Part shown: one piece after another, positions 34,560-56,892 of the stretch
How the letters are laid out: each line of letters begins with the position of its first letter
Position numbering within the stretch: position 1 is the stretch's first letter
Assembly: GCA_026395995.1 (NCBI GenBank)
Contig: JAPLXQ010000006.1
Location: 18,983 to 82,982, forward strand
Reading direction: 5' to 3'
Source: Candidatus Nomurabacteria bacterium
GTDB lineage: Bacteria; Patescibacteriota; Minisyncoccia; Phycocordibacterales; UBA9973
DNA: 64,000 bases
Notes under the pieces: model-generated
Seen by the model: the letters and a program-made list of their open reading frames with translations, nothing else
The model's database searches: none
Told to the model about the DNA's origin: nothing
Program-made: the position numbers and the translations under genes

Positions 34560-34573
34560 ATAAAACACAAATA

Positions 34574-34607
34574 AAAAAGTCCCGATTAATTTCGGGACTT
34601 TTTGTTT
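34574..34607. terminator. Bidirectional terminator AAAAAGTCCCGA ttaatt TCGGGACTTTTT
   Basis: Perfect stem with A-run on one side and T-run on the other, between rpmA (+) and rplI (-). Confidence 0.75.
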
Positions 34608-35050
34608 TATGCTTTTGTAATTACTACTTTAAAACTAGACTTGTGATGTTTTATTTCTACAGGAATTTCAAACTCCCCTATCTCCTTTATTGGTTTTTCG
34701 AGAATTATAAAATCTTCTAAAATTTCTGCTTTATGATTTGTCTTTAAAGCTTCAATAATTTCTTTTTTATGAATTGAAGAAAATAGATGTCCTTTTTCAT
34801 TGGCTTTACCAGAAATATTTACAACCTTGTCTTTCAATTCAGCCAAACTCTTTAATATCAATTCTTCTTGAACTTTATTGTCCAATAATACAGCATTTTT
34901 CTTTGCTTCCAGTTGAGCCAAGGCTTGAGGTGTAGCTGGGGCAGCCAATTTTTTTGGAAATAGAAAATTACTAGCATAGCCATCATTTACATCTTTGACA
35001 TCGTTTCTGCGACCGACTCTTGGTACATCTTTTAAAAAAATTACTTTCAT
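34607..35050 (-). CDS. rplI: 50S ribosomal protein L9
   Basis: MKVIFLKDVPRVGRRNDVKDVNDGYASNFLFPKKLA is a canonical bL9 N-domain. Confidence 0.88.
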   Translation of the reverse strand: MKVIFLKDVPRVGRRNDVKDVNDGYASNFLFPKKLAAPATPQALAQLEAKKNAVLLDNKVQEELILKSLAELKDKVVNISGKANEKGHLFSSIHKKEIIEALKTNHKAEILEDFIILEKPIKEIGEFEIPVEIKHHKSSFKVVITKA

Positions 35051-39116: not shown

Positions 39117-39566
39117 ATGAAAAAAAGACTCTTAAGTATCGCTATCGTGGCGACAGTAATTTTGTTGTTTTTAGGAAAAATAACTTCTGCGCAAACAGAT
39201 TCAATGCATTGTGGAAATTATAATCCGCAAAATATGGAAGTAACTCTTCCGTATTACAATGATACAGTTATAGTATACGTCCTCTATGATAAACGAGGAA
39301 AGTTTACATATACTGATCAAGATTTTAAGGACGGGAAATATGTGACTTATCAAAAAATTGCAAATAAAAATTTTAAGAAATTAAAATCGCATGATGATGT
39401 CGTAATTCCGGTAAGTTTTGAAAATCTTGAAATCTTCCAGGAAGTATTTTATAAATACAAAAAAGAAGATTTAAGATTTAAAAACGTAAAAATCGATTGT
39501 AGCATTATATTCGGAAGTCCTGGTCAATGGATAACCACAATCTCTATTTACTTAGAAAAAAATTAA
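39117..39566 (+). CDS. Hypothetical secreted protein (start trimmed to MKKRLLSIAIVATVILLFLGKITSAQ)
   Basis: Signal peptide; no other motif. Confidence 0.4.
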   Translation: MKKRLLSIAIVATVILLFLGKITSAQTDSMHCGNYNPQNMEVTLPYYNDTVIVYVLYDKRGKFTYTDQDFKDGKYVTYQKIANKNFKKLKSHDDVVIPVSFENLEIFQEVFYKYKKEDLRFKNVKIDCSIIFGSPGQWITTISIYLEKN

Positions 39567-39568
39567 CA

Positions 39569-39600
39569 AAAAAGTCCCGAACGAATCGGGACTTTTTTTA
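39569..39600. terminator. Bidirectional terminator AAAAAGTCCCGA acgaa TCGGGACTTTTTTT
   Basis: Perfect 8-bp stem flanked by A- and T-runs, between the 39117 (+) gene and atpC (-). Confidence 0.75.
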
Positions 39601-40059
39601 TTTTCTGTACTTTCTAGTCTTCCATTTATCTGCGATTTTGACTCGAGTGAGGGAGCGGTCGAGCTCGGTCGCGAAGTGTTCGAAGTCTACGACTTCTTTG
39701 TTCTCGGCGAGTTTTTGAAGTTCTAATGATCGAGCTTTTGCTTTCTCGATGGCTTCATCTGTAATTTCAGAAATATGTTCTGCAAAGTCGGCAAGGATAG
39801 CGACTTCGGTTATAGAAGTTTGTGAAGGACCTTCCTTCACAGATTTAACCTCGAGAAATCCGCCTACAACCGCATATGGAATATGCTCGCCATTTGCTAG
39901 GGCTACGATATCGCCAGATTTGAGGCCTGCGATTATCGGCACGTGCTCGGGCAAGACTGTGATCTCCCCTTCCAGTGTGGGCACTGTCACGCTCTCAACA
40001 AGCTCTTCGAGTACGAGCTTTTCTGGGGTGACTATTTTTAGTTTTAATTGTTTTGACAT
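39598..40059 (-). CDS. atpC: F-type ATP synthase epsilon subunit
   Basis: LKLKIVTPEKLVLEELVESVTVPTLEGEITVLPEHVPIIAGLKSGDIV is the canonical epsilon N-domain. It is the last gene of the atp operon. Confidence 0.85.
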   Translation of the reverse strand: MSKQLKLKIVTPEKLVLEELVESVTVPTLEGEITVLPEHVPIIAGLKSGDIVALANGEHIPYAVVGGFLEVKSVKEGPSQTSITEVAILADFAEHISEITDEAIEKAKARSLELQKLAENKEVVDFEHFATELDRSLTRVKIADKWKTRKYRK

Positions 40060-40062
40060 AAT

Positions 40063-40293
40063 TTATTTTAAAAGAAAACCTTTAATATCTTTTTCTTGAG
40101 TTAAAGTAAGATAATATGCAAATGCACAACTTGCTACATTTCTATTATAACCATGTTCGTTGCCATCTTTTACGCAATGCACTACTTTAAAAGTAAGGAA
40201 TAAAATAACTAAAACAATAATTAAAGCAAAGGACAAAAGTAACTTAATCCATAATTTAACTTTTTTTATTTTTTTAATTTCTTGATTTTCCAT
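40063..40293 (-). CDS. Small single-TM protein MENQEIKKIKKVKLW..., inserted between atpD and atpC; paralogue of 42793..43125
   Basis: Shares an identical nine-residue N-terminus (MENQEIKKI) and about 26 identical nucleotides at its 5' end with the ORF at 42793..43125. Confidence 0.45.
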   Translation of the reverse strand: MENQEIKKIKKVKLWIKLLLSFALIIVLVILFLTFKVVHCVKDGNEHGYNRNVASCAFAYYLTLTQEKDIKGFLLK

Positions 40294-40304
40294 AATTTAA
40301 TTAT

Positions 40305-40356
40305 AACGCCCCCTTCCCGCCCGCCATCGCTACGCTCAGGCGTTAGCGGGCGGGCA
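40305..40356. repeat. GC-rich nested hairpin (CCGCCCGC ... GCGGGCGG with inner GCTACGC tcag GCGTTAGC) in the atpD-downstream intergenic region
   Basis: Read directly; a strongly GC-rich island in AT-rich spacer DNA. Confidence 0.4.
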
Positions 40357-40372
40357 TATAAAACTAATAATA

Positions 40373-42783
<2,411 letters not shown>

Positions 42784-42792
42784 AAAAATTAA

Positions 42793-43125
42793 TTACATAA
42801 GTGGTTCAAATGCTATCCAGTGCGGGAAAAAATATCTAAAAATAAAATATAACAAGGGCATCAAAATTACCAAAGTATTAAGAATTTTATATTTTAATAT
42901 AGAACCCCCAATTTCCTTTTTAAAGTAGGATATTTTTTTAAAATCTGCTACACACTTAATTAAAGAGAAATAAGATAATACTAGACCGACAATTACATAC
43001 AATATAACGTTAGCGGAATCGAAGAAATATAAACTTATAACATAATAAATTATCCACGCACAAAGTAAAAATATGAAACTAGCAATCTTATCTTTATATA
43101 TTTTTTTAATTTCTTGATTTTCCAT
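42793..43125 (-). CDS. Small multi-TM membrane protein MENQEIKKIYKDK..., inserted between atpA and atpG; paralogue of 40063..40293
   Basis: Same 5' end (ttatggaaaatcaagaaattaaaaaaat) and N-terminus as the 40063 ORF; three hydrophobic helices. Confidence 0.45.
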   Translation of the reverse strand: MENQEIKKIYKDKIASFIFLLCAWIIYYVISLYFFDSANVILYVIVGLVLSYFSLIKCVADFKKISYFKKEIGGSILKYKILNTLVILMPLLYFIFRYFFPHWIAFEPLM

Positions 43126-43129
43126 AATT

Positions 43130-44641
43130 TTAACTCAAAAATCCTGCTTTGTAATCCCCGATTGCTTGTTTTAATTCTGCTTCGCCGGCATCAGTCCACA
43201 TCTTTGTCTCGCGAATGTCTTTGAGGAATGTCTTTGCATTATTTTCTGCATAGGCGACGAGGCCCGCTTCGAATTCTTTGATCTTTTCGACTGGCACTTC
43301 ATCGATCATGCCTTTCACGAGCGCATAGAGCGTAATGATCTGATGTTCGACGACGACCGGAGAATATTGCGGCTGCTTGAGCATTTCCACTGCTCTCTTT
43401 CCTCTTTCGAGTTGGCGCTTGGTAGCGTCATCGAGGTCGGAACCGAATTGTGAAAAGGCTTCGAGTTCACGGAATTGCGCGAGGTCGAGTTTCAAAGTTC
43501 CAGCGACTTTTTTCATACCTTTGATTTGTGCAGATCCTCCCACACGAGAGACCGAGAATCCGACGTTTACCGCAGGCCGCACGCCTTTGTAGAAGAGATC
43601 AGTTTCGAGGAAGATTTGTCCATCGGTGATGGAGATCACGTTTGTCGGAATGTACGCAGAAATATCTCCAGCTTGAGTTTCGATTATAGGAAGAGCAGTG
43701 ATAGATCCACCTCCGTAATCTTTATTTTTTCGACAAGCACGTTCGAGTAAACGTGAGTGCAAGTAGAAAACGTCTCCAGGGTACGCTTCACGGCCTGGTG
43801 GACGGCGGAGCAAGAGTGAGATTTCACGGTAAGCGACAGCGTGCTTTGAAAGATCATCATAAATAATCAAAACATCTTTTCCTGCATCCATAAAGTGCTC
43901 AGCGATAGCGACACCAGTATAAGGAGCGATGTATGACATAGCTGCAGGTTCTGATGAACCAGCTGAGACGATGATGGTGTAATCCATCGCACCACCTTCG
44001 GCGAGACGAGTTTCTATTTTTCGGAGCTTGGAATCTTTTTGACCGATCGAGACGTAGACACAGATCATGTTTTGACCTTTTTGGTTTAGGATCGCATCGA
44101 TAGCGATAGCGGTCTTACCGGTCTGGCGGTCACCGATGATGAGCTCGCGTTGTCCACGGCCGATAGGAATGAGCGCATCGATAGCCTTGATACCTGTCTG
44201 CACTGGTTGGTCGACTGATTGGCGACTCATGACTCCGGAAGCCACACGCTCCACAGGGTTTGTCTTGTCTGTCTTGATAGCACCTTTGCCGTCGATAGGC
44301 ATACCGAGCGCATTGAGTACGCGGCCGATTTGGAGATCTGAAACAGGAACTTCGAGAATTTTACCAGTAGCTTTCACTTCATCCCCTTCGCGAATCTTAG
44401 AGAAATCACCGAGAACGATAACACCCACAGAATCATCTTCGAGGTTAAGAGCCACACCTTCCACACCGTTTGCAAAAGTGACAATTTCTGAAGCTTTGAT
44501 ATCGGAAAGGCCTGAGACTTTCGCGATACCGTCGAAAACTTCCACTACGTGGCCGATCTTTTCTGACTTCACTTCCGCCTTGAAATTCTCGATTTCTTTT
44601 CGGAGATTTTCTACTATTTGATTGTGATTTTTTGTTGTCAT
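43130..44641 (-). CDS. atpA: F-type ATP synthase alpha subunit
   Basis: Walker A GDRQTGKT and a canonical F1-alpha sequence throughout ([14 protein letters not shown]..., [19 protein letters not shown]). Confidence 0.95.
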
Positions 44642-44654
44642 TTTATTTTAAAAA

Positions 44655-48896: not shown

Positions 48897-48912
48897 ATAT
48901 TTATTATATCAA

Positions 48913-49023
48913 AAAAGTCGCATGTATGTTTTTTATGGACATTTCAAGAGCGACTGGCTCTTGAACCTGAGAAATTTTTTAGTAAAAAAATTTCGTGCCA
49001 TAAAATGCATACATGCGACTTTT
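48913..49023. other. Highly structured ~110-nt element between rpmE and prfA: a 24-bp interrupted outer stem (AAAAGTCGCATGTATG..TTTTATGG / CCATAAAA..CATACATGCGACTTTT) enclosing two internal hairpins (AAGAGC gactg GCTCTT; AAATTTTTT agt AAAAAAATTT)
   Basis: All repeats read directly. On the minus-strand transcript the structure is followed by UUUUUUGAUAUAAUAA, giving a terminator-like U-tract plus a TATAAT box. Confidence 0.5.
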
Positions 49024-49028
49024 CTAAT

Positions 49029-49250
49029 TTATTTTTTAGCTTTTGCTGCAGATGCAACACCACGCTTCTTGAAGCGATCAATACGTCCTGTAGTATCTAG
49101 GATTTTATCATTACCTGTATAGAAAGGATGGCATTGAGAACAGATTTCGTTTTCAATTACAAGCATTGTAGAACCAATTTCAAAAACAGCCCCACAAGCA
49201 CAAGTGGCTTTTATCTTATCATCATATTTTGGGTGTATACCTTTTTTCAT
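49029..49250 (-). CDS. rpmE: 50S ribosomal protein L31 (Zn-binding type)
   Basis: MKKGIHPKYDDKIKATCACGAVFEIGSTM...CSQCHPFYTG, showing the CxxC...CxxH zinc ribbon of bL31. Confidence 0.88.
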   Translation of the reverse strand: MKKGIHPKYDDKIKATCACGAVFEIGSTMLVIENEICSQCHPFYTGNDKILDTTGRIDRFKKRGVASAAKAKK

Positions 49251-51383: not shown

Positions 51384-53141
51384 TTATACTCCGTGGTGTG
51401 GTTTTGGGTGTTCTATAGCTAAATGACTAGCTATATATTCCTTTGTACCACCTATCTTTTTACCAGGATTTAAAATATTATTCGGGTCAAAAATAGTCTT
51501 TGTTTGTTTGAATAAATTGTAAATTCTTTCACCATACATCTTCTCTAGGTACGGAGTTCGTACTATTCCGTCATTGTGTTCAGCTGTTATAGACCCATGA
51601 TAACGAATAACTAAATCATAAACTTTATCTGAAAGTTCTAAAATAATTTTAGCTGTATCGGGACGAGTAAAATCCATCAGTGGAATTATATGAAAATTTC
51701 CATCACCTGCGTGTCCTGCTATCGTATATGTAATATCATAATTTCCTAAAATTTTATTTAACTCTGGAATAAATTTTGGTAAAAATTCTGGACGAACAAT
51801 AATGTCATCGATAAATGGTGCTGTTCTTTTGTTCGCGACGTGTTTACGAAGTAAATTGAAACTTTCGCGACGAATATCCCAATATTTTCCTGCTTCTGCA
51901 TCTGATTTCGTAATATGAACTTTTAAATTAAAATGTTTTATCGCTTCTTTTAATTTTATACATTGAGCATTTGCTTGCTCTTCATTATCGCCAGCAAATT
52001 CTACAAGCAAAATCATTTTCGGGAATCCACCTGTAATCATCATTCCGAGTTCCGGCAAGAATGACCACATAAATTTAATCATTCCTATTAATCCTTTTGT
52101 CTTTAAAAAGTCTGGGAAAAACTTTACTGCGAGTTTCATCGTCTTGTCATCATAAGTTTCCAATGTCTCTGGATTCAGAGGTAAAATCTCATCTACAAGT
52201 CTACCTAGTGGTTCCAAGTCTGTCATAAAAATAGCTACAAGTTTTGAATACTTTGGATTTTTAACAAGTTTAAAAGTGACTTCTGTCGCTATACCTAAAG
52301 TTCCTTGAGAACCAACGAGCAACTTATTTAGATTAAAAATTTTATCAGCACCCCCTCCCAACCTCCCCCTTGGCAAAGGGGGAGGAGAACTCAATACATT
52401 CCAAAGATAATATCCAGCAGAATTTTTGTGAACTTTTGGTTTCGCCTCCGCTATTTCTTCTTCATTATTTTTTACTAATTCAAAAATCTTTTTACTATAT
52501 TCGTCTTGATTAGAAATTTGATTCGCTGGAATTGATTTTATAATTCTCTCTACTCCGTCAGTAAAAACAACTTTTGATTCTACTACATAATCTTCTGTTT
52601 TTCCGTATTTTAAAGTTCTCTCTCCTGCAGAATTATTTCCAAACATTCCACCCATAGCATTTAAACTCTTTGATGCAGTATAGCAAGGTAAAATAAGCCC
52701 TTTTTCTAAAGTTATTTTTTCAAAATCTCTGTAAAACATTCCCGGCTGAACAGTAATGGTCGGCTGGGAAAAGGCAAGACCTTTAGGGAGTCCAAGGTCT
52801 TGCCTTGAGGAAGCCGAATCATTAAATTCAATTAATTTATTCATATATTTAGTAAAATCTAAAATTATAGATTCACCGATAGCTCCGCCAGACATATCTG
52901 TCCCAGCACAACGGCACGTAATAGAAAGAAGATCACCTTTCTCATGCAATCCTTTGTTTTTTACGATGTCATTATTTTTATTTATAAATTTAACTAAATT
53001 CTGAACATCAATATTATCTTTAGGAAAGATTACAAACTTTGGACGAATTTCAAAAATACTCGCATCATGAGAATATTTTTTAAGTGTTTCATCACTATCA
53101 TCCACTTCCCCTTTTATTATTTTTTGTAGTTCTTCTTTCAT
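51384..53141 (-). CDS. FAD-linked oxidoreductase (PCMH-type FAD-binding domain + FAD-oxidase C-terminal domain; GlcD/D-lactate dehydrogenase-like), carrying an in-frame GC-rich repeat insertion
   Basis: FAD-binding segments (ITCRCAGTDMSGGAIGESIILDF; LLVGSQGTLGIATEVTFKL); the C-terminal HGSITAEHNDG. The insert [16 protein letters not shown] is encoded by the repeat at 52348-52388. Confidence 0.7.
   Translation of the reverse strand: MKEELQKIIKGEVDDSDETLKKYSHDASIFEIRPKFVIFPKDNIDVQNLVKFINKNNDIVKNKGLHEKGDLLSITCRCAGTDMSGGAIGESIILDFTKYMNKLIEFNDSASSRQDLGLPKGLAFSQPTITVQPGMFYRDFEKITLEKGLILPCYTASKSLNAMGGMFGNNSAGERTLKYGKTEDYVVESKVVFTDGVERIIKSIPANQISNQDEYSKKIFELVKNNEEEIAEAKPKVHKNSAGYYLWNVLSSPPPLPRGRLGGGADKIFNLNKLLVGSQGTLGIATEVTFKLVKNPKYSKLVAIFMTDLEPLGRLVDEILPLNPETLETYDDKTMKLAVKFFPDFLKTKGLIGMIKFMWSFLPELGMMITGGFPKMILLVEFAGDNEEQANAQCIKLKEAIKHFNLKVHITKSDAEAGKYWDIRRESFNLLRKHVANKRTAPFIDDIIVRPEFLPKFIPELNKILGNYDITYTIAGHAGDGNFHIIPLMDFTRPDTAKIILELSDKVYDLVIRYHGSITAEHNDGIVRTPYLEKMYGERIYNLFKQTKTIFDPNNILNPGKKIGGTKEYIASHLAIEHPKPHHGV
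52348..52388. repeat. Single reverse-orientation copy of the GC-rich palindromic repeat (GCACCCCCTCCCAA CCTCCCCC TTGGCAAA GGGGGAGG), in frame inside the FAD-oxidase gene
   Basis: Near-exact reverse complement of the atpG copy at 42072-42111, differing only in the loop. It translates to SPPPLPRGRLGGG. Confidence 0.7.
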
Positions 53142-54363: not shown

Positions 54364-55842
54364 CTATTTTAGCAAATCCATGAGCAATTGTTTAGCTACT
54401 TGGGGATTCGCGGAGCCTTTGGTTTCTTTCATCATTTGACCGACGAGTGACATGAGCGCGACTTCTTTACCGCCTTTATAATCAGCAACGACTTTTTCAT
54501 TTCCTGAGATTATTTTCTGAGCAATTTCAGTGAGTGCACCTGTATCGTTTTTCTGAAGCAAATCTTTTTCTGTAGCAATTTTAAGTGGGCTAGCATCTTC
54601 GGAAACGATCATCGCCAAAATATCTTTTCCGGCACGAGAAGAAATTTTATTTTCAAAAATTAATGTGACGAGTTCGGCAAAGTTAAAAGCACTTGGCTTT
54701 TTGAATTTTCCCTCCCCTTCGCCAAGGGGAGGGTTAGGGAGGGGTGCATTTTTCCTTAGACCAATAAAATCTGTAGTTATATAATTAGAAGCAACTTTTG
54801 CTAAATCTTTATTGTCACTAAGCTCTACAATAATTTCTTCAAACCATTTTCCGAGTTCTAAATCATTAATATAGACTTCTATATCTTCATCTTTAATACC
54901 ATACGCTGTTTTATATCTATCTCTCTTTTGTGCTGGAGTTTCTGGTAGATCTTTCTTCATAGCTTCTAAATCAAAAGCTTCGTGAAGTTTCATTTTTGGT
55001 AAATCAGGATCAGGAAAATAACGATAGTCCTGACTACTTTCTTTCTTTCTCTGAGAAATTGTCTTTTGTTTATTTTCATCCCAACCACGAGTTTCTTTTA
55101 CTATTTCACTTTCGCGTCCACTTTCAAAAAGTTCAGTCATTCTTTCTACTTCATATTTAATAGCTTTTTCTGCACTACGGAAAGAGTTTAAATTTTTTAC
55201 TTCTACATATGCAGGCCATTTGTTATCTTTATCTGGTGAAATAGAAACGTTTGCTTCTACGCGCATTTCTCCCTTTTCCATATTTGCCTCTGAAACTCCG
55301 AGATACCAAAGTAAGAGTTGATATTCTTTTGCGAAATTACTTGCGCACTTTGCCGCATCTTCTGGATTATCAAAAGTATGTGCTTCAGTAACGAGTTCCA
55401 TAAGTGGTACACCAGCACGATTGAAATCAATAAGTGTATAATCCCCTTTGTCGTGTTTACTAGTCCCTGTATCTTCTTCCAAGTGAATACGAGTGAGGTC
55501 CATCCCTGCGAGCTTACCACCAGAAACTATTGGATATTTGTATTGTGAAATCTGATATCCTTTTGGAATATCTGGATAAAAATAATTCTTTCTATCGAAT
55601 TCTGAAAAATCTGCTATTTCTGAACCAAGTGCGAGCCCAACTTTAATAACACTTTCAATAGCCTTTTTATTGGGTACAGGCAAAGTCGCCGGATGCGCCA
55701 TACATACAGGACAAATGTTTACGTTTGGCTTTTCCTCATCAGGATCGTTTTTACAACCACAAAACATCTTTGTAGTTGTCTTCAACTCCGCATGTATTTC
55801 CAAACCTATTGTTGTGTAATATTTCTTTTCCATAAAGTTCAA
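54364..55842 (-). CDS. gatB: Asp-tRNA(Asn)/Glu-tRNA(Gln) amidotransferase subunit B, carrying an in-frame GC-rich repeat insertion near the C-terminal domain
   Basis: MEKKYYTTIGLEIHAELKTTTKMFCGCKND is the canonical GatB N-terminus. The insert APLPNPPLGEGEGKF is encoded by the repeat at 54709-54747. C-terminal YqeY-like domain. Confidence 0.88.
   Translation of the reverse strand: MNFMEKKYYTTIGLEIHAELKTTTKMFCGCKNDPDEEKPNVNICPVCMAHPATLPVPNKKAIESVIKVGLALGSEIADFSEFDRKNYFYPDIPKGYQISQYKYPIVSGGKLAGMDLTRIHLEEDTGTSKHDKGDYTLIDFNRAGVPLMELVTEAHTFDNPEDAAKCASNFAKEYQLLLWYLGVSEANMEKGEMRVEANVSISPDKDNKWPAYVEVKNLNSFRSAEKAIKYEVERMTELFESGRESEIVKETRGWDENKQKTISQRKKESSQDYRYFPDPDLPKMKLHEAFDLEAMKKDLPETPAQKRDRYKTAYGIKDEDIEVYINDLELGKWFEEIIVELSDNKDLAKVASNYITTDFIGLRKNAPLPNPPLGEGEGKFKKPSAFNFAELVTLIFENKISSRAGKDILAMIVSEDASPLKIATEKDLLQKNDTGALTEIAQKIISGNEKVVADYKGGKEVALMSLVGQMMKETKGSANPQVAKQLLMDLLK
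54709..54747. repeat. Single forward-orientation copy of the GC-rich palindromic repeat (CCCTCCCC TTCGCCAA GGGGAGGG TTAGGGAGGGGTGC), in frame inside gatB
   Basis: Same architecture and tail as the atpG copy; translates to PLPNPPLGEGEG. Confidence 0.7.
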
Positions 55843-56588: not shown

Positions 56589-56892
56589 ATTCTTTAATCG
56601 TAGCTTCGACGTGGAGAGTTTCGGTAGATTGACTATTTGGGGCGGAGGCGTTGCCTCCGTATCTTTTCACTTTTGTATAAATCCAAGATCCGGCATTACC
56701 TACAGTATGCGCCGTATCAGTCATTGTCTTTACCTTAGAAAATACAACAAAAAGTAAGAATAAGGTAACAACGTAAGGTATAATAGCTAACCAAAAAATA
56801 ACTTTAAAAAATAAGTATGGACCACCGAGGACATGAGTGTATCCCAATACCCAGAGTGCCATCATTATTAAAAAAGTTCGTGAAAGTTTCAT
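56587..56892 (-). CDS. Small membrane protein (hypothetical)
   Basis: Three hydrophobic helices plus a hydrophilic C-terminal tail. The tail-coding DNA contains a GGAGGCgttGCCTCC hairpin. Confidence 0.35.
   Translation of the reverse strand: MKLSRTFLIMMALWVLGYTHVLGGPYLFFKVIFWLAIIPYVVTLFLLFVVFSKVKTMTDTAHTVGNAGSWIYTKVKRYGGNASAPNSQSTETLHVEATIKE

What the first reader, a model, noticed from the sequence alone, without database searches (positions are those of the whole stretch)
52348..52388. Reverse-complement copy of the same palindromic unit inside the FAD-linked oxidase gene
GCACCCCCTCCCAACCTCCCCCTTGGCAAAGGGGGAGG is the near-exact reverse complement of the atpG unit, differing only in loop bases. 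It is again in frame, encoding SPPPLPRGRLGGG. The match in both sequence and frame argues for a mobile or repetitive element rather than a coincidental GC-rich codon run.
Basis: seen in the sequence. Interest (0 to 1): 0.6.

Follow-up and report, generated by a model that had tools for sequence, protein, structure and literature searches.

The report
GC-rich hairpin repeat inside genes

Summary
Window 52344-52395 is 94% reverse-complementary over 52 nt to 42064-42115 in atpG. There are four copies in the window, not three: A and B in atpG, C in the FAD-linked oxidase, D in gatB.

Each unit has an AT-rich leader (TGARTTCY), a 10-bp hairpin (CCTCCCCCTT/AAGGGGGAGG) and a second G-run (GGGAGGGGGTGC). 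All four lie in genes and are read through without a stop.

Orthologue comparison shows they are insertions. About 45 related gatB genes lack unit D. In gatB, and in a related FAD oxidase pair, about 45 nt replace about 12 nt of target, with no target-site duplication.

The FAD oxidase site is a hot spot. Three relatives at about 90% DNA identity carry three different hairpin inserts there, and many orthologues carry none.

The same hairpin-plus-G-tail motif occurs, mostly between genes and often as inverted pairs, in many bacterial phyla and in phage contigs. Its stem covaries. No Rfam family matches it, and I found no paper describing it.

Best reading: a REP/MITE-like mobile hairpin repeat, tolerated in surface loops as Rickettsia palindromic elements are. 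How it moves is unknown. I rate it a new variant of a known kind, of moderate to high interest.

The parts
52344..52395 (-). Unit C, the finding. It is forward-oriented on the minus (gene sense) strand. On the + strand it reads: trailer ATCAGCA 52344-52350; G-tail complement CCCCCTCCC 52351-52359; AA; hairpin arm CCTCCCCCTT 52362-52371; loop GGCA 52372-52375; arm AAGGGGGAGG 52376-52385; leader complement AGAACTCAAT 52386-52395. Translated as [17 protein letters not shown].
   Evidence: I1; 47.1 bits, E 5e-7
51384..53141 (-). Host gene of unit C: FAD-linked oxidase, 585 aa. The unit lies between the FAD_binding_4 and FAD-oxidase_C domains, at residues about 250-264. It sits in a lineage-variable region that a solved homologue (LctD) does not have.
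   Evidence: (100% to an NCBI Candidatus Nomurabacteria protein)
42064..42115 (+). Unit A in atpG, the near-identical copy (49/52). Leader ATTGAGTTCC; arm 42074-42083; loop CGCT; arm 42088-42097; TT; G-tail 42100-42108; trailer TGCTGAT. Read on the gene's sense strand in reverse orientation as [16 protein letters not shown].
   Evidence: 46.5 bits
42117..42163 (-). Unit B in atpG, a degenerate copy. With A it forms a tail-to-tail inverted pair, giving an approximately 100-nt palindrome. Read as [15 protein letters not shown].
   Evidence: I15; -65.6 kcal/mol, z -4.5; 18.7 bits, E 0.43
54702..54749 (+). Unit D in gatB, with shorter C/G runs. Leader TGAATTTT; arms 54710-54719 and 54724-54733; TTA; G-tail 54737-54744; TGC. 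Read as APLPNPPLGEGEGKF. Close relatives have 12 nt (AATCCTGAAATA) where this 45-nt unit sits.
   Evidence: (44.9 bits)
41808..42783 (-). Host gene of units A and B: atpG, the ATP synthase gamma subunit. Here it is split into two overlapping ORFs by a 14-nt deletion relative to a relative (L125). The units lie in the variable loop before ...IPYLIEGD.
54364..55842 (-). Host gene of unit D: gatB. The insertion falls in a loop that aligns with ...ELNERNIEITESKL... of Thermotoga GatB (3AL0_B).

Best explanation
Unit C is one copy of a short (about 45-54 nt), GC-rich, hairpin-forming repeat that has spread within this Candidatus Nomurabacteria genome. I read it as REP/MITE-like 'selfish' DNA. Each copy has an AT-rich leader, a 10-bp C-arm/G-arm hairpin and a second G-run.

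Shown:
- Copies were inserted into pre-existing genes. Orthologues lack them.
- A and C are nearly identical, including their flanks.
- All coding copies are stop-free in the frame used, and the net length change is a multiple of three.
- Insertion sites are variable loops.

Inferred:
- New copies land anywhere. Only those that keep the frame and fall in permissive surface loops of essential proteins survive selection.
- Surviving copies are translated into Pro/Gly-rich loop peptides, as with Rickettsia palindromic elements.
- The hairpin on single-stranded DNA is probably what the unknown copying machinery recognises.

The two datable insertions replace about 12 nt of target and leave no duplication. 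That points away from classical cut-and-paste transposition.
For: - Repeat identity is far above chance.
- Four copies lie in 64 kb, against about 12 sites in 1.1 Mb of related DNA, so the family has expanded in particular lineages.
- gatB: the window has 45 nt where L121 and L122 have 12 nt. About 45 other distinct orthologues are also short there.
- FAD oxidase: many orthologues have 8 residues between WN and LNK. The window has 22. Relatives at about 90% DNA identity carry three different inserts.
- L148 versus L163 shows the same unit as a +33-nt replacement at that site.
- The same unit occurs in valS (L008) and alaS (L059) of other CPR genomes, and between genes in L148, L177 and L178.
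- The leader A.TGA.TTCT is conserved among copies in different genes, so it belongs to the element.
- The forward unit is open in only one of three frames, and that is the frame used.
- In the AlphaFold model the insert is coil, with pLDDT below 50 at residues 257-264. It falls in regions unaligned or gapped against solved homologues.
- Outside CPR the motif behaves like REPs. It is mostly intergenic, occurs in either orientation, and forms inverted doublets and clusters.
Against: - No transposase, RAYT or other mobilising gene was found. Only 64 kb plus fragments were examined, and only with a crude motif search.
- There is no target-site duplication. The target is partly replaced, which is atypical for MITEs and REPs.
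- The GTAG/CGTC tag of most REPs is absent.
- The near-identical core across phyla and phages, with covarying stem and conserved G-tail, could mean the structure is selected for a function rather than purely selfish.
- Translation of the inserts is inferred from intact frames, not observed.
- atpG, the host of A and B, carries a frameshift in this assembly.
Confidence: 0.7

Rival explanations
1. The hairpin plus G-tail is a functional nucleic-acid module. It might be a protein-binding site, a hairpin/G-quadruplex or triplex switch, or an mRNA-stability or ribosome-pausing signal. On this view it is conserved across bacteria and phages and is kept in these genes because it does something there.
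For:
- Stem covariation is well above shuffles.
- The G-tail is conserved in all nine aligned CPR copies.
- The G-arm plus tail (e.g. GGGGAGGGTTAGGGAGGGG in unit D) is a homopurine mirror repeat with four G-runs.
- Some CPR copies sit just 5' of start codons, where the G-arm resembles a Shine-Dalgarno site (L177/L178 prfA, L148 atpF).
Against: - Both orientations occur relative to transcription, in CPR genes and in intergenic copies.
- Most orthologues of each host gene lack the unit.
- Copy B is decaying.
- There is no Rfam family.
- Covariation is also expected for DNA hairpins recognised by a mobilising enzyme.
Confidence: 0.18
2. The inserts are made locally by a mutational process, such as template switching at quasi-palindromes or hairpin-primed repair. 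They are not copies of a mobile element.
For: - The empty FAD oxidase site is itself a small palindrome (CAAAAGAATGTTTTTG).
- Other inserts at that hot spot have perfect 20-30 bp outer stems unique to each orthologue.
- In L128 versus L134 the host flanks have changed on both sides to extend the stem.
- The target sequence is replaced rather than duplicated.
Against: - The same 45-52 nt sequence, including a non-palindromic leader and G-tail, is found at unlinked sites in atpG, the oxidase, gatB, valS and alaS, and in other genomes. A local process cannot produce that.
- It may still shape the stems after insertion.
Confidence: 0.07
3. The units are not translated. They would be bypassed by the ribosome or removed from the mRNA, like the GC-rich 'byp' elements of a yeast mitochondrion or the gap in T4 gene 60 (comparison from my own knowledge).
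For: An AT-rich genome with short GC-rich hairpin inserts in essential genes is the same setting. There are strong hairpins inside ORFs.
Against: - All nine intragenic CPR copies examined are stop-free in the host frame.
- Where an empty orthologous site is available for comparison (gatB, and the FAD oxidase in the window and in L148), the length change is a multiple of three (+33, +42, +33).
- Neither property would be required if the unit were skipped.
Confidence: 0.03
4. Chance GC-rich codon run, selection for Pro/Gly-rich linker peptides, or an assembly artefact.
For: The sequence is low in complexity. Pro/Gly-rich loops are common linkers.
Against: - Zero matches were found in shuffled sequence.
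- DNA identity is 94%, while the two orientations encode unrelated peptides.
- The identical protein is in an NCBI MAG, and the same insert is in four contigs from separate metagenome assemblies (L148, L151, L152, L154).
Confidence: 0.02

Closest known systems
Rickettsia palindromic elements (RPEs; Ogata et al. 2000, as summarised in PMC10969869)
   Same: Palindromic repeats in a small AT-rich genome of a host-dependent bacterium. They are inserted in frame into unrelated housekeeping genes and are apparently compatible with protein fold and function. They occur in several families. (RPE facts; the facts for this element.)
   Different: - RPEs are about 150 bp and confined to Rickettsia. This unit is 45-54 nt and about 70% GC.
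- This unit has a hairpin plus a G-run rather than a long palindrome.
- Its core motif is shared with many phyla and phages.
- Sequence homology to RPEs was not tested.
REP / REPIN / BIME elements (repetitive extragenic palindromes; definition in PMC12306157; GTAG/CGTC tags in PMC3733652)
   Same: A short GC-rich imperfect hairpin with a shared consensus and many copies. It forms inverted doublets (A/B here; L006, L018, L037, L048, L068) and clusters (L071). In Proteobacteria it is mostly intergenic, close to gene ends.
   Different: - In this genome all four copies are inside genes.
- There is no GTAG or CGTC tag.
- No RAYT was found (a weak test).
- A conserved G-tail follows the hairpin.
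[quoted passage not shown]
   Same: Small, non-autonomous, hairpin-forming repeats that can fuse in frame with host ORFs.
   Different: - There is no target-site duplication at the two datable insertions. About 12 nt of target are replaced.
- The unit is asymmetric (leader, hairpin, G-tail) rather than bounded by terminal inverted repeats.
- It is at or below the usual MITE size.
GC clusters and 'byp' elements of yeast mitochondrial genomes (from my own knowledge, not checked here)
   Same: Short GC-rich palindromic mobile inserts in a very AT-rich genome, some inside protein-coding genes.
   Different: Byps are skipped by the ribosome and need not be in frame. The units here are always open, and where an empty site allows measurement the length change is a multiple of three. 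The system is eukaryotic and organellar.

Membership tests
Rickettsia palindromic elements (RPE) | Palindromic repeat inserted in frame into unrelated protein-coding genes | tested here: met
   Units lie in atpG, the FAD oxidase and gatB (window), and in valS and alaS (L008, L059). All are open in the host frame.
Rickettsia palindromic elements (RPE) | About 150-bp element belonging to one of the described RPE families of Rickettsia (PMC10969869) | tested here: not met
   The unit is 45-54 nt and the organism is Candidatus Nomurabacteria. Sequence comparison with RPE consensus sequences was not possible.
REP (repetitive extragenic palindromes) | Short palindromic stem-loop with a common consensus, present in multiple copies | tested here: met
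   10-bp stem, -21 kcal/mol. Four copies in the window, consensus in alignment A2. Stem covariation.
REP (repetitive extragenic palindromes) | Extragenic location (seldom overlapping coding regions; PMC12306157) | tested here: not met
   4 of 4 window copies, and 9 of 13 CPR copies examined, are inside ORFs. This criterion is met by the motif's copies in Proteobacteria and phages.
REP (repetitive extragenic palindromes) | GTAG or CGTC tetranucleotide at one end (most REPs; PMC3733652) | tested here: not met
   The 5' flanks are GCTCC, TTCC or TGARTTCY, and the 3' end is a G-tail followed by GT or TT. No GTAG or CGTC on either strand.
REP (repetitive extragenic palindromes) | Association with a RAYT (REP-associated tyrosine transposase) gene flanked by REPs | tested here: inconclusive
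   A regular-expression search for the HUH...RFW..Y..NP signature in six-frame translations of all loci and the window found nothing. The motif was written from memory, and only fragments of each genome were available.
MITE | Target-site duplication flanking the insert | tested here: not met
   gatB: 45 nt replace AATCCTGAAATA. FAD oxidase L148 versus L163: about 45 nt replace about 12 nt. No duplicated flank in either.
MITE | Terminal inverted repeats matching those of an autonomous insertion sequence | not tested
   The ends of the unit (TGARTTCY ... GGGGGTGC) are not inverted repeats of each other. No candidate parent insertion sequence was available to compare.
Rfam structured RNA families | Match to a curated covariance model at its gathering score | tested here: not met
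   Only tRNAs pass in the window and in eight motif-bearing loci. In E-value mode only a chance sub-threshold miRNA hit overlaps units A/B.

The most novel reading that the evidence does not exclude
The hairpin plus mirror G-tail is a previously undescribed, pan-bacterial and phage-borne mobile module. It would move by a structure-guided, target-replacing mechanism: about 45-54 nt in, about 12 nt out, no duplication. In CPR bacteria it, together with several other hairpin families, would act as exchangeable cassettes at a few permissive protein loops, continually remodelling housekeeping proteins. It may be supplied by phages or by DNA taken up from host bacteria.
Probability: 0.15. Interest if true: 0.85.

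Novelty: new variant of a known kind. Interest (0 to 1): 0.62.

Why it matters
Outside Rickettsia, in-frame colonisation of essential genes by palindromic repeats is treated as a rarity. Here it appears in an unrelated lineage, the ultra-small, host-dependent Patescibacteria (CPR). The element is different and much shorter, and it coexists with other hairpin-insert families.

The same protein loops are hit again and again. Close relatives differ by which hairpin they carry.

- For annotation, this explains odd Pro/Gly-rich insertions and length variation in CPR proteins.
- For evolution, it offers a natural system for studying how selfish DNA creates protein loop diversity in minimal genomes.
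- For mechanism, it raises two questions. How does a unit without target duplication or a visible transposase spread? And why is its core shared with intergenic repeats of many phyla and phages?

Tried and rejected
- **Rfam.** Gathering and E-value searches of the window and eight motif-bearing loci found no family for the unit.
- **Literature.** I searched for the literal sequence, for in-frame or palindromic elements and MITEs in CPR/Patescibacteria/Parcubacteria, and for the CCCTCCCC/GGGGAGGG motif with REP terms. Nothing describes this element. One poorly chosen search returned noise.
- **RAYT/IS200-like genes.** A regular-expression search near motif copies found nothing. This is a weak test.
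- **Rest of the contig.** Look-ups with two window-edge ORFs failed, probably because the called starts differ.
- **GC-island survey.** A survey of 1.1 Mb of related DNA was too noisy to define families. I replaced it with the hot-spot survey and a covariance-model search.
- **Whole-region alignment.** Aligning the window against L121 was noisy wherever genes differ.
- **Intrinsic terminator.** Rejected. No T-run follows the hairpin in either orientation.
- **General Shine-Dalgarno function.** Rejected. Most intergenic copies are not at start codons.
- **CRISPR repeat.** The 9-nt resemblance of the leader plus stem foot (GAGTTCCCC) to the E. coli type I-E repeat, recalled from memory, is most likely chance.
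- **False positives.** I discarded the covariance-model hits in L172 and L140 as native coding sequence.

Full report
**1. The observation**

The window is AT-rich: about 32% GC, rising to 42-46% over the atp operon. At 52348-52385 the + strand reads GCACCCCCTCCCAACCTCCCCCTTGGCAAAGGGGGAGG.

The repeat finder pairs 52344-52395 with 42064-42115 as 52-nt arms, 94% complementary (I1). The match therefore includes AT-rich flanks (ATTGAGTTC and TGCTGAT) beyond the GC-rich core. A 35-nt pattern with up to 3 mismatches finds only these two sites. None appeared in 100 shuffles.

A motif scan and a covariance-model search find four units:
- A, 42064-42115 (+)
- B, 42117-42163 (-), degenerate
- C, 52344-52395 (-), the finding
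- D, 54702-54749 (+)

In forward orientation a unit reads: leader TGARTTCY; arm CCTCCCCCTT; 4-nt loop; arm AAGGGGGAGG; TT; GGGAGGGGG; TGC (alignment A2). The hairpin folds at about -21 kcal/mol. The A/B pair folds into a roughly 100-nt palindrome at -65.6 kcal/mol, z = -4.5.

**2. Host genes and reading frames**

All four units lie in minus-strand genes:
- C in a FAD-linked oxidase (51384-53141), read as [15 protein letters not shown].
- D in gatB, read as APLPNPPLGEGEGKF.
- A and B in atpG, read as [15 protein letters not shown] and [15 protein letters not shown].

Relative to the genes, C and B are forward and A and D are reverse. Including leader and trailer, the forward unit is open in only one of three frames. 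The reverse unit is open in two or three. 'In frame' is therefore what selection must leave behind, not independent evidence.

The organism is Candidatus Nomurabacteria (Patescibacteria/CPR). The oxidase is 100% identical to an NCBI MAG protein.

**3. They are insertions**

*gatB.* Two close relatives, L121 and L122 (about 90% DNA identity), read AAAAAT-AATCCTGAAATA-AAAAAG. The window reads AAAAAT-GCACCCCTCCCTAACCCTCCCCTTGGCGAAGGGGAGGGAAAATTC-AAAAAG. That is 45 nt in, 12 nt out, net +33, with no duplicated flank. About 45 further distinct orthologues have the short form.

*FAD oxidase.* Between ...AGYYLWN and LNKLLVGSQGTLG, many orthologues have 8 residues (VIQKNVFD). The window has 22.

Three relatives at about 90% identity carry three different inserts there:
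- The window has unit C.
- L122 has a variant of the same family with an extra mini-hairpin, read in another frame (SPYEGEVASTRAGGV).
- L121 has an unrelated 60-nt palindrome.

In a more distant lineage, L148 carries the same family at this site and its relative L163 does not. Again about 45 nt replace about 12 nt.

*atpG.* The closest orthologue (L125) has a loop 17 residues shorter.

*Location in the proteins.* The sites are variable loops.
- In the oxidase, the region 197-269 is unaligned to the solved LctD.
- An AlphaFold model (mean pLDDT 69.5) shows coil there, with pLDDT below 50 at 257-264.
- In GatB, the unit falls where Thermotoga GatB has a short loop.

**4. The family in CPR genomes**

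The same unit, with a similar leader (AGTGAATTCT), sits in valS of another Nomurabacteria MAG (L008, [14 protein letters not shown]). It also sits in alaS of a Minisyncoccia MAG (L059, APPPDLPLVKGEGN).

A covariance model built from 66 copies finds about 12 distinct sites in 1.1 Mb of Nomurabacteria-like DNA. Four are in this window, and three or four are in the 10.5-kb contig L148. That pattern fits lineage-specific bursts.

Some CPR copies are intergenic or just upstream of start codons (L148, L177/L178). A and C differ at 3 of 52 positions, all outside the stem and G-tail. B has decayed.

**5. The hot spot and other hairpin families**

About half of 80-odd oxidase orthologues carry something at the site of unit C. 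These are 30-180 nt inserts folding at -20 to -65 kcal/mol. A second hot spot lies after MNKLI.F.

The commonest other family has three layers:
- a conserved centre;
- an inner stem, AAGAATTCT/AGAATTCTT;
- perfect outer stems unique to each orthologue.

In L128 versus L134 the host flanks changed on both sides so as to extend the stem. The empty site is itself a small palindrome. This suggests hairpin-templated correction after insertion. I did not pursue it further.

**6. The motif beyond CPR**

These came from Xanthomonadales, many Alphaproteobacteria, Deltaproteobacteria, Chloroflexota, Acidobacteriota, Rahnella, Moritella, Marinomonas, CPR and others.

The stem positions not fixed by the pattern are paired in 126 and 115 of 137 copies. 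Partner-shuffled controls give 62-64. On alignment A3, 89% of cells are paired, and 69 cells show changes on both sides against 27 in shuffles, with 0 of 500 shuffles reaching the observed value.

In low-GC Proteobacteria the copies are mostly intergenic, in either orientation. They often occur as tail-to-tail inverted pairs or in clusters (L071).

Eighty-six viral stretches also carry the motif, several per contig and between genes.

There is no GTAG or CGTC tag, no T-run after the hairpin, and no Rfam family. Whether this breadth reflects common descent, horizontal spread or convergence on a low-complexity structure is open.

**7. Interpretation**

The best-supported reading is a REP/MITE-like mobile hairpin repeat. 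In these gene-dense genomes its copies survive mainly where they keep the frame in permissive loops. That is the situation described for Rickettsia palindromic elements (PMC10969869).

Steps shown:
- repeat identity;
- insertion polarity;
- loop location;
- open frames;
- lineage-specific abundance.

Steps inferred:
- translation of the inserts;
- selection as the filter;
- hairpin recognition by an unknown enzyme.

Absent target duplication and partial target replacement are unusual. No mobilising gene was seen, but the test was weak.

Rivals, with rough weights:
- a selected structural or regulatory module (about 0.18);
- local template-switch origin (about 0.07, contradicted by identical units at unlinked sites);
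- ribosomal bypass (about 0.03, contradicted by open frames and, where measurable, length changes in multiples of three);
- chance or artefact (about 0.02).

**8. Novelty**

The searchable literature holds no description of in-frame palindromic repeats in CPR or of this motif. The phenomenon is of a known kind (RPE-like, REP-like). The element, its host lineage, its insertion signature and its cross-phylum core are not described there. I rate it a new variant of a known kind, interest 0.62.

Noticed in passing
window 42295-42386 (atpG): atpG is split into two overlapping ORFs. Relative to the orthologue in L125, the window lacks 14 nt (ATCATTGCATCTTTTACAGACTTGCC versus ATCATCG--TTGCC). This gives a frameshift about 200 nt upstream of units A/B. 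It is either a pseudogene or an assembly error.
   Followed up: partly
window 52766-52819: A second in-frame hairpin insert in the same FAD oxidase: 54 nt, AAGGCAAGACCTT...AAGGTCTTGCCTT, read as SASSRQDLGLPKGLAFSQ. It is absent from the close relative L121. It lies at a second insertion hot spot after MNKLI.F and belongs to a different repeat family.
   Followed up: partly
FAD oxidase hot spot in L128, L132, L141, L144, L156, L162, L169, L176, L180, L183, L194, L196: Long (60-180 nt) in-frame palindromes with a conserved centre and inner stem (AAGAATTCT/AGAATTCTT) but perfect 10-15 bp outer stems unique to each orthologue. In L128 versus L134 the host flanks changed on both sides to extend the stem. 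This may be hairpin-templated correction or template switching.
   Followed up: partly
window 39600-44650 (atp operon): The atp operon is 42-46% GC against about 32% elsewhere. The AtpG residues flanking its variable loop are nearly identical to L125, while the FAD oxidase of that locus is only 74% identical. This suggests exchange or unusual conservation of the operon.
   Followed up: no
window 40063-40293 and 42793-43125: Two AT-rich small ORFs, both starting MENQEIKKI, are interleaved in the atp operon. Their 5' ends share a 43-nt repeat at 93% identity (40256-40298 and 43088-43130).
   Followed up: no
window 48905-49031: A long intergenic hairpin with 34-nt arms, 85% complementary, 59 nt apart. 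It has an inner hairpin. Only chance-level Rfam hits overlap it.
   Followed up: no
window ~56673-56713: Two short GC-richer segments (25 and 32 nt; one holds the hairpin GGAGGCAACGCCTCC) are present in the window but not in L121 in a whole-region alignment. They may be further small inserts.
   Followed up: no
L121 6551-8020 (gatB of a close relative): This gatB lacks unit D but has a different small insertion (SKHIGDTSTSLSAGYTLIDF versus SKHDKGDYTLIDF in the window). Close relatives therefore differ by several independent small in-frame inserts.
   Followed up: no
L071 5500-6110 (Enterobacterales bacterium CwR94): An intergenic cluster of 35-nt hairpin units (TTTTGCTCCTCCCCTGTTTACGGGGATGAGCAC) interspersed with full hairpin-plus-G-tail units in both orientations. 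It forms 145- and 180-nt periods and resembles a BIME.
   Followed up: partly
L206, L210, L230, L237, L274, L282 (IMG/VR viral contigs, 56-62% GC): Three to five copies of the motif per phage contig, with a very uniform context (AAGGGGGGAGGCTT..AGCCC-CTCCCCTTAGATAAGGGGAGG-CGGGGGAGGGG-TTAAG). All lie between genes, in either orientation relative to them.
   Followed up: partly
window 34569-34623 and 39549-39603: Similar hairpins (AAAAAAGTCCCGA...TCGGGACTTTTT) flanked by A-runs and T-runs. They look like bidirectional intrinsic terminators.
   Followed up: no
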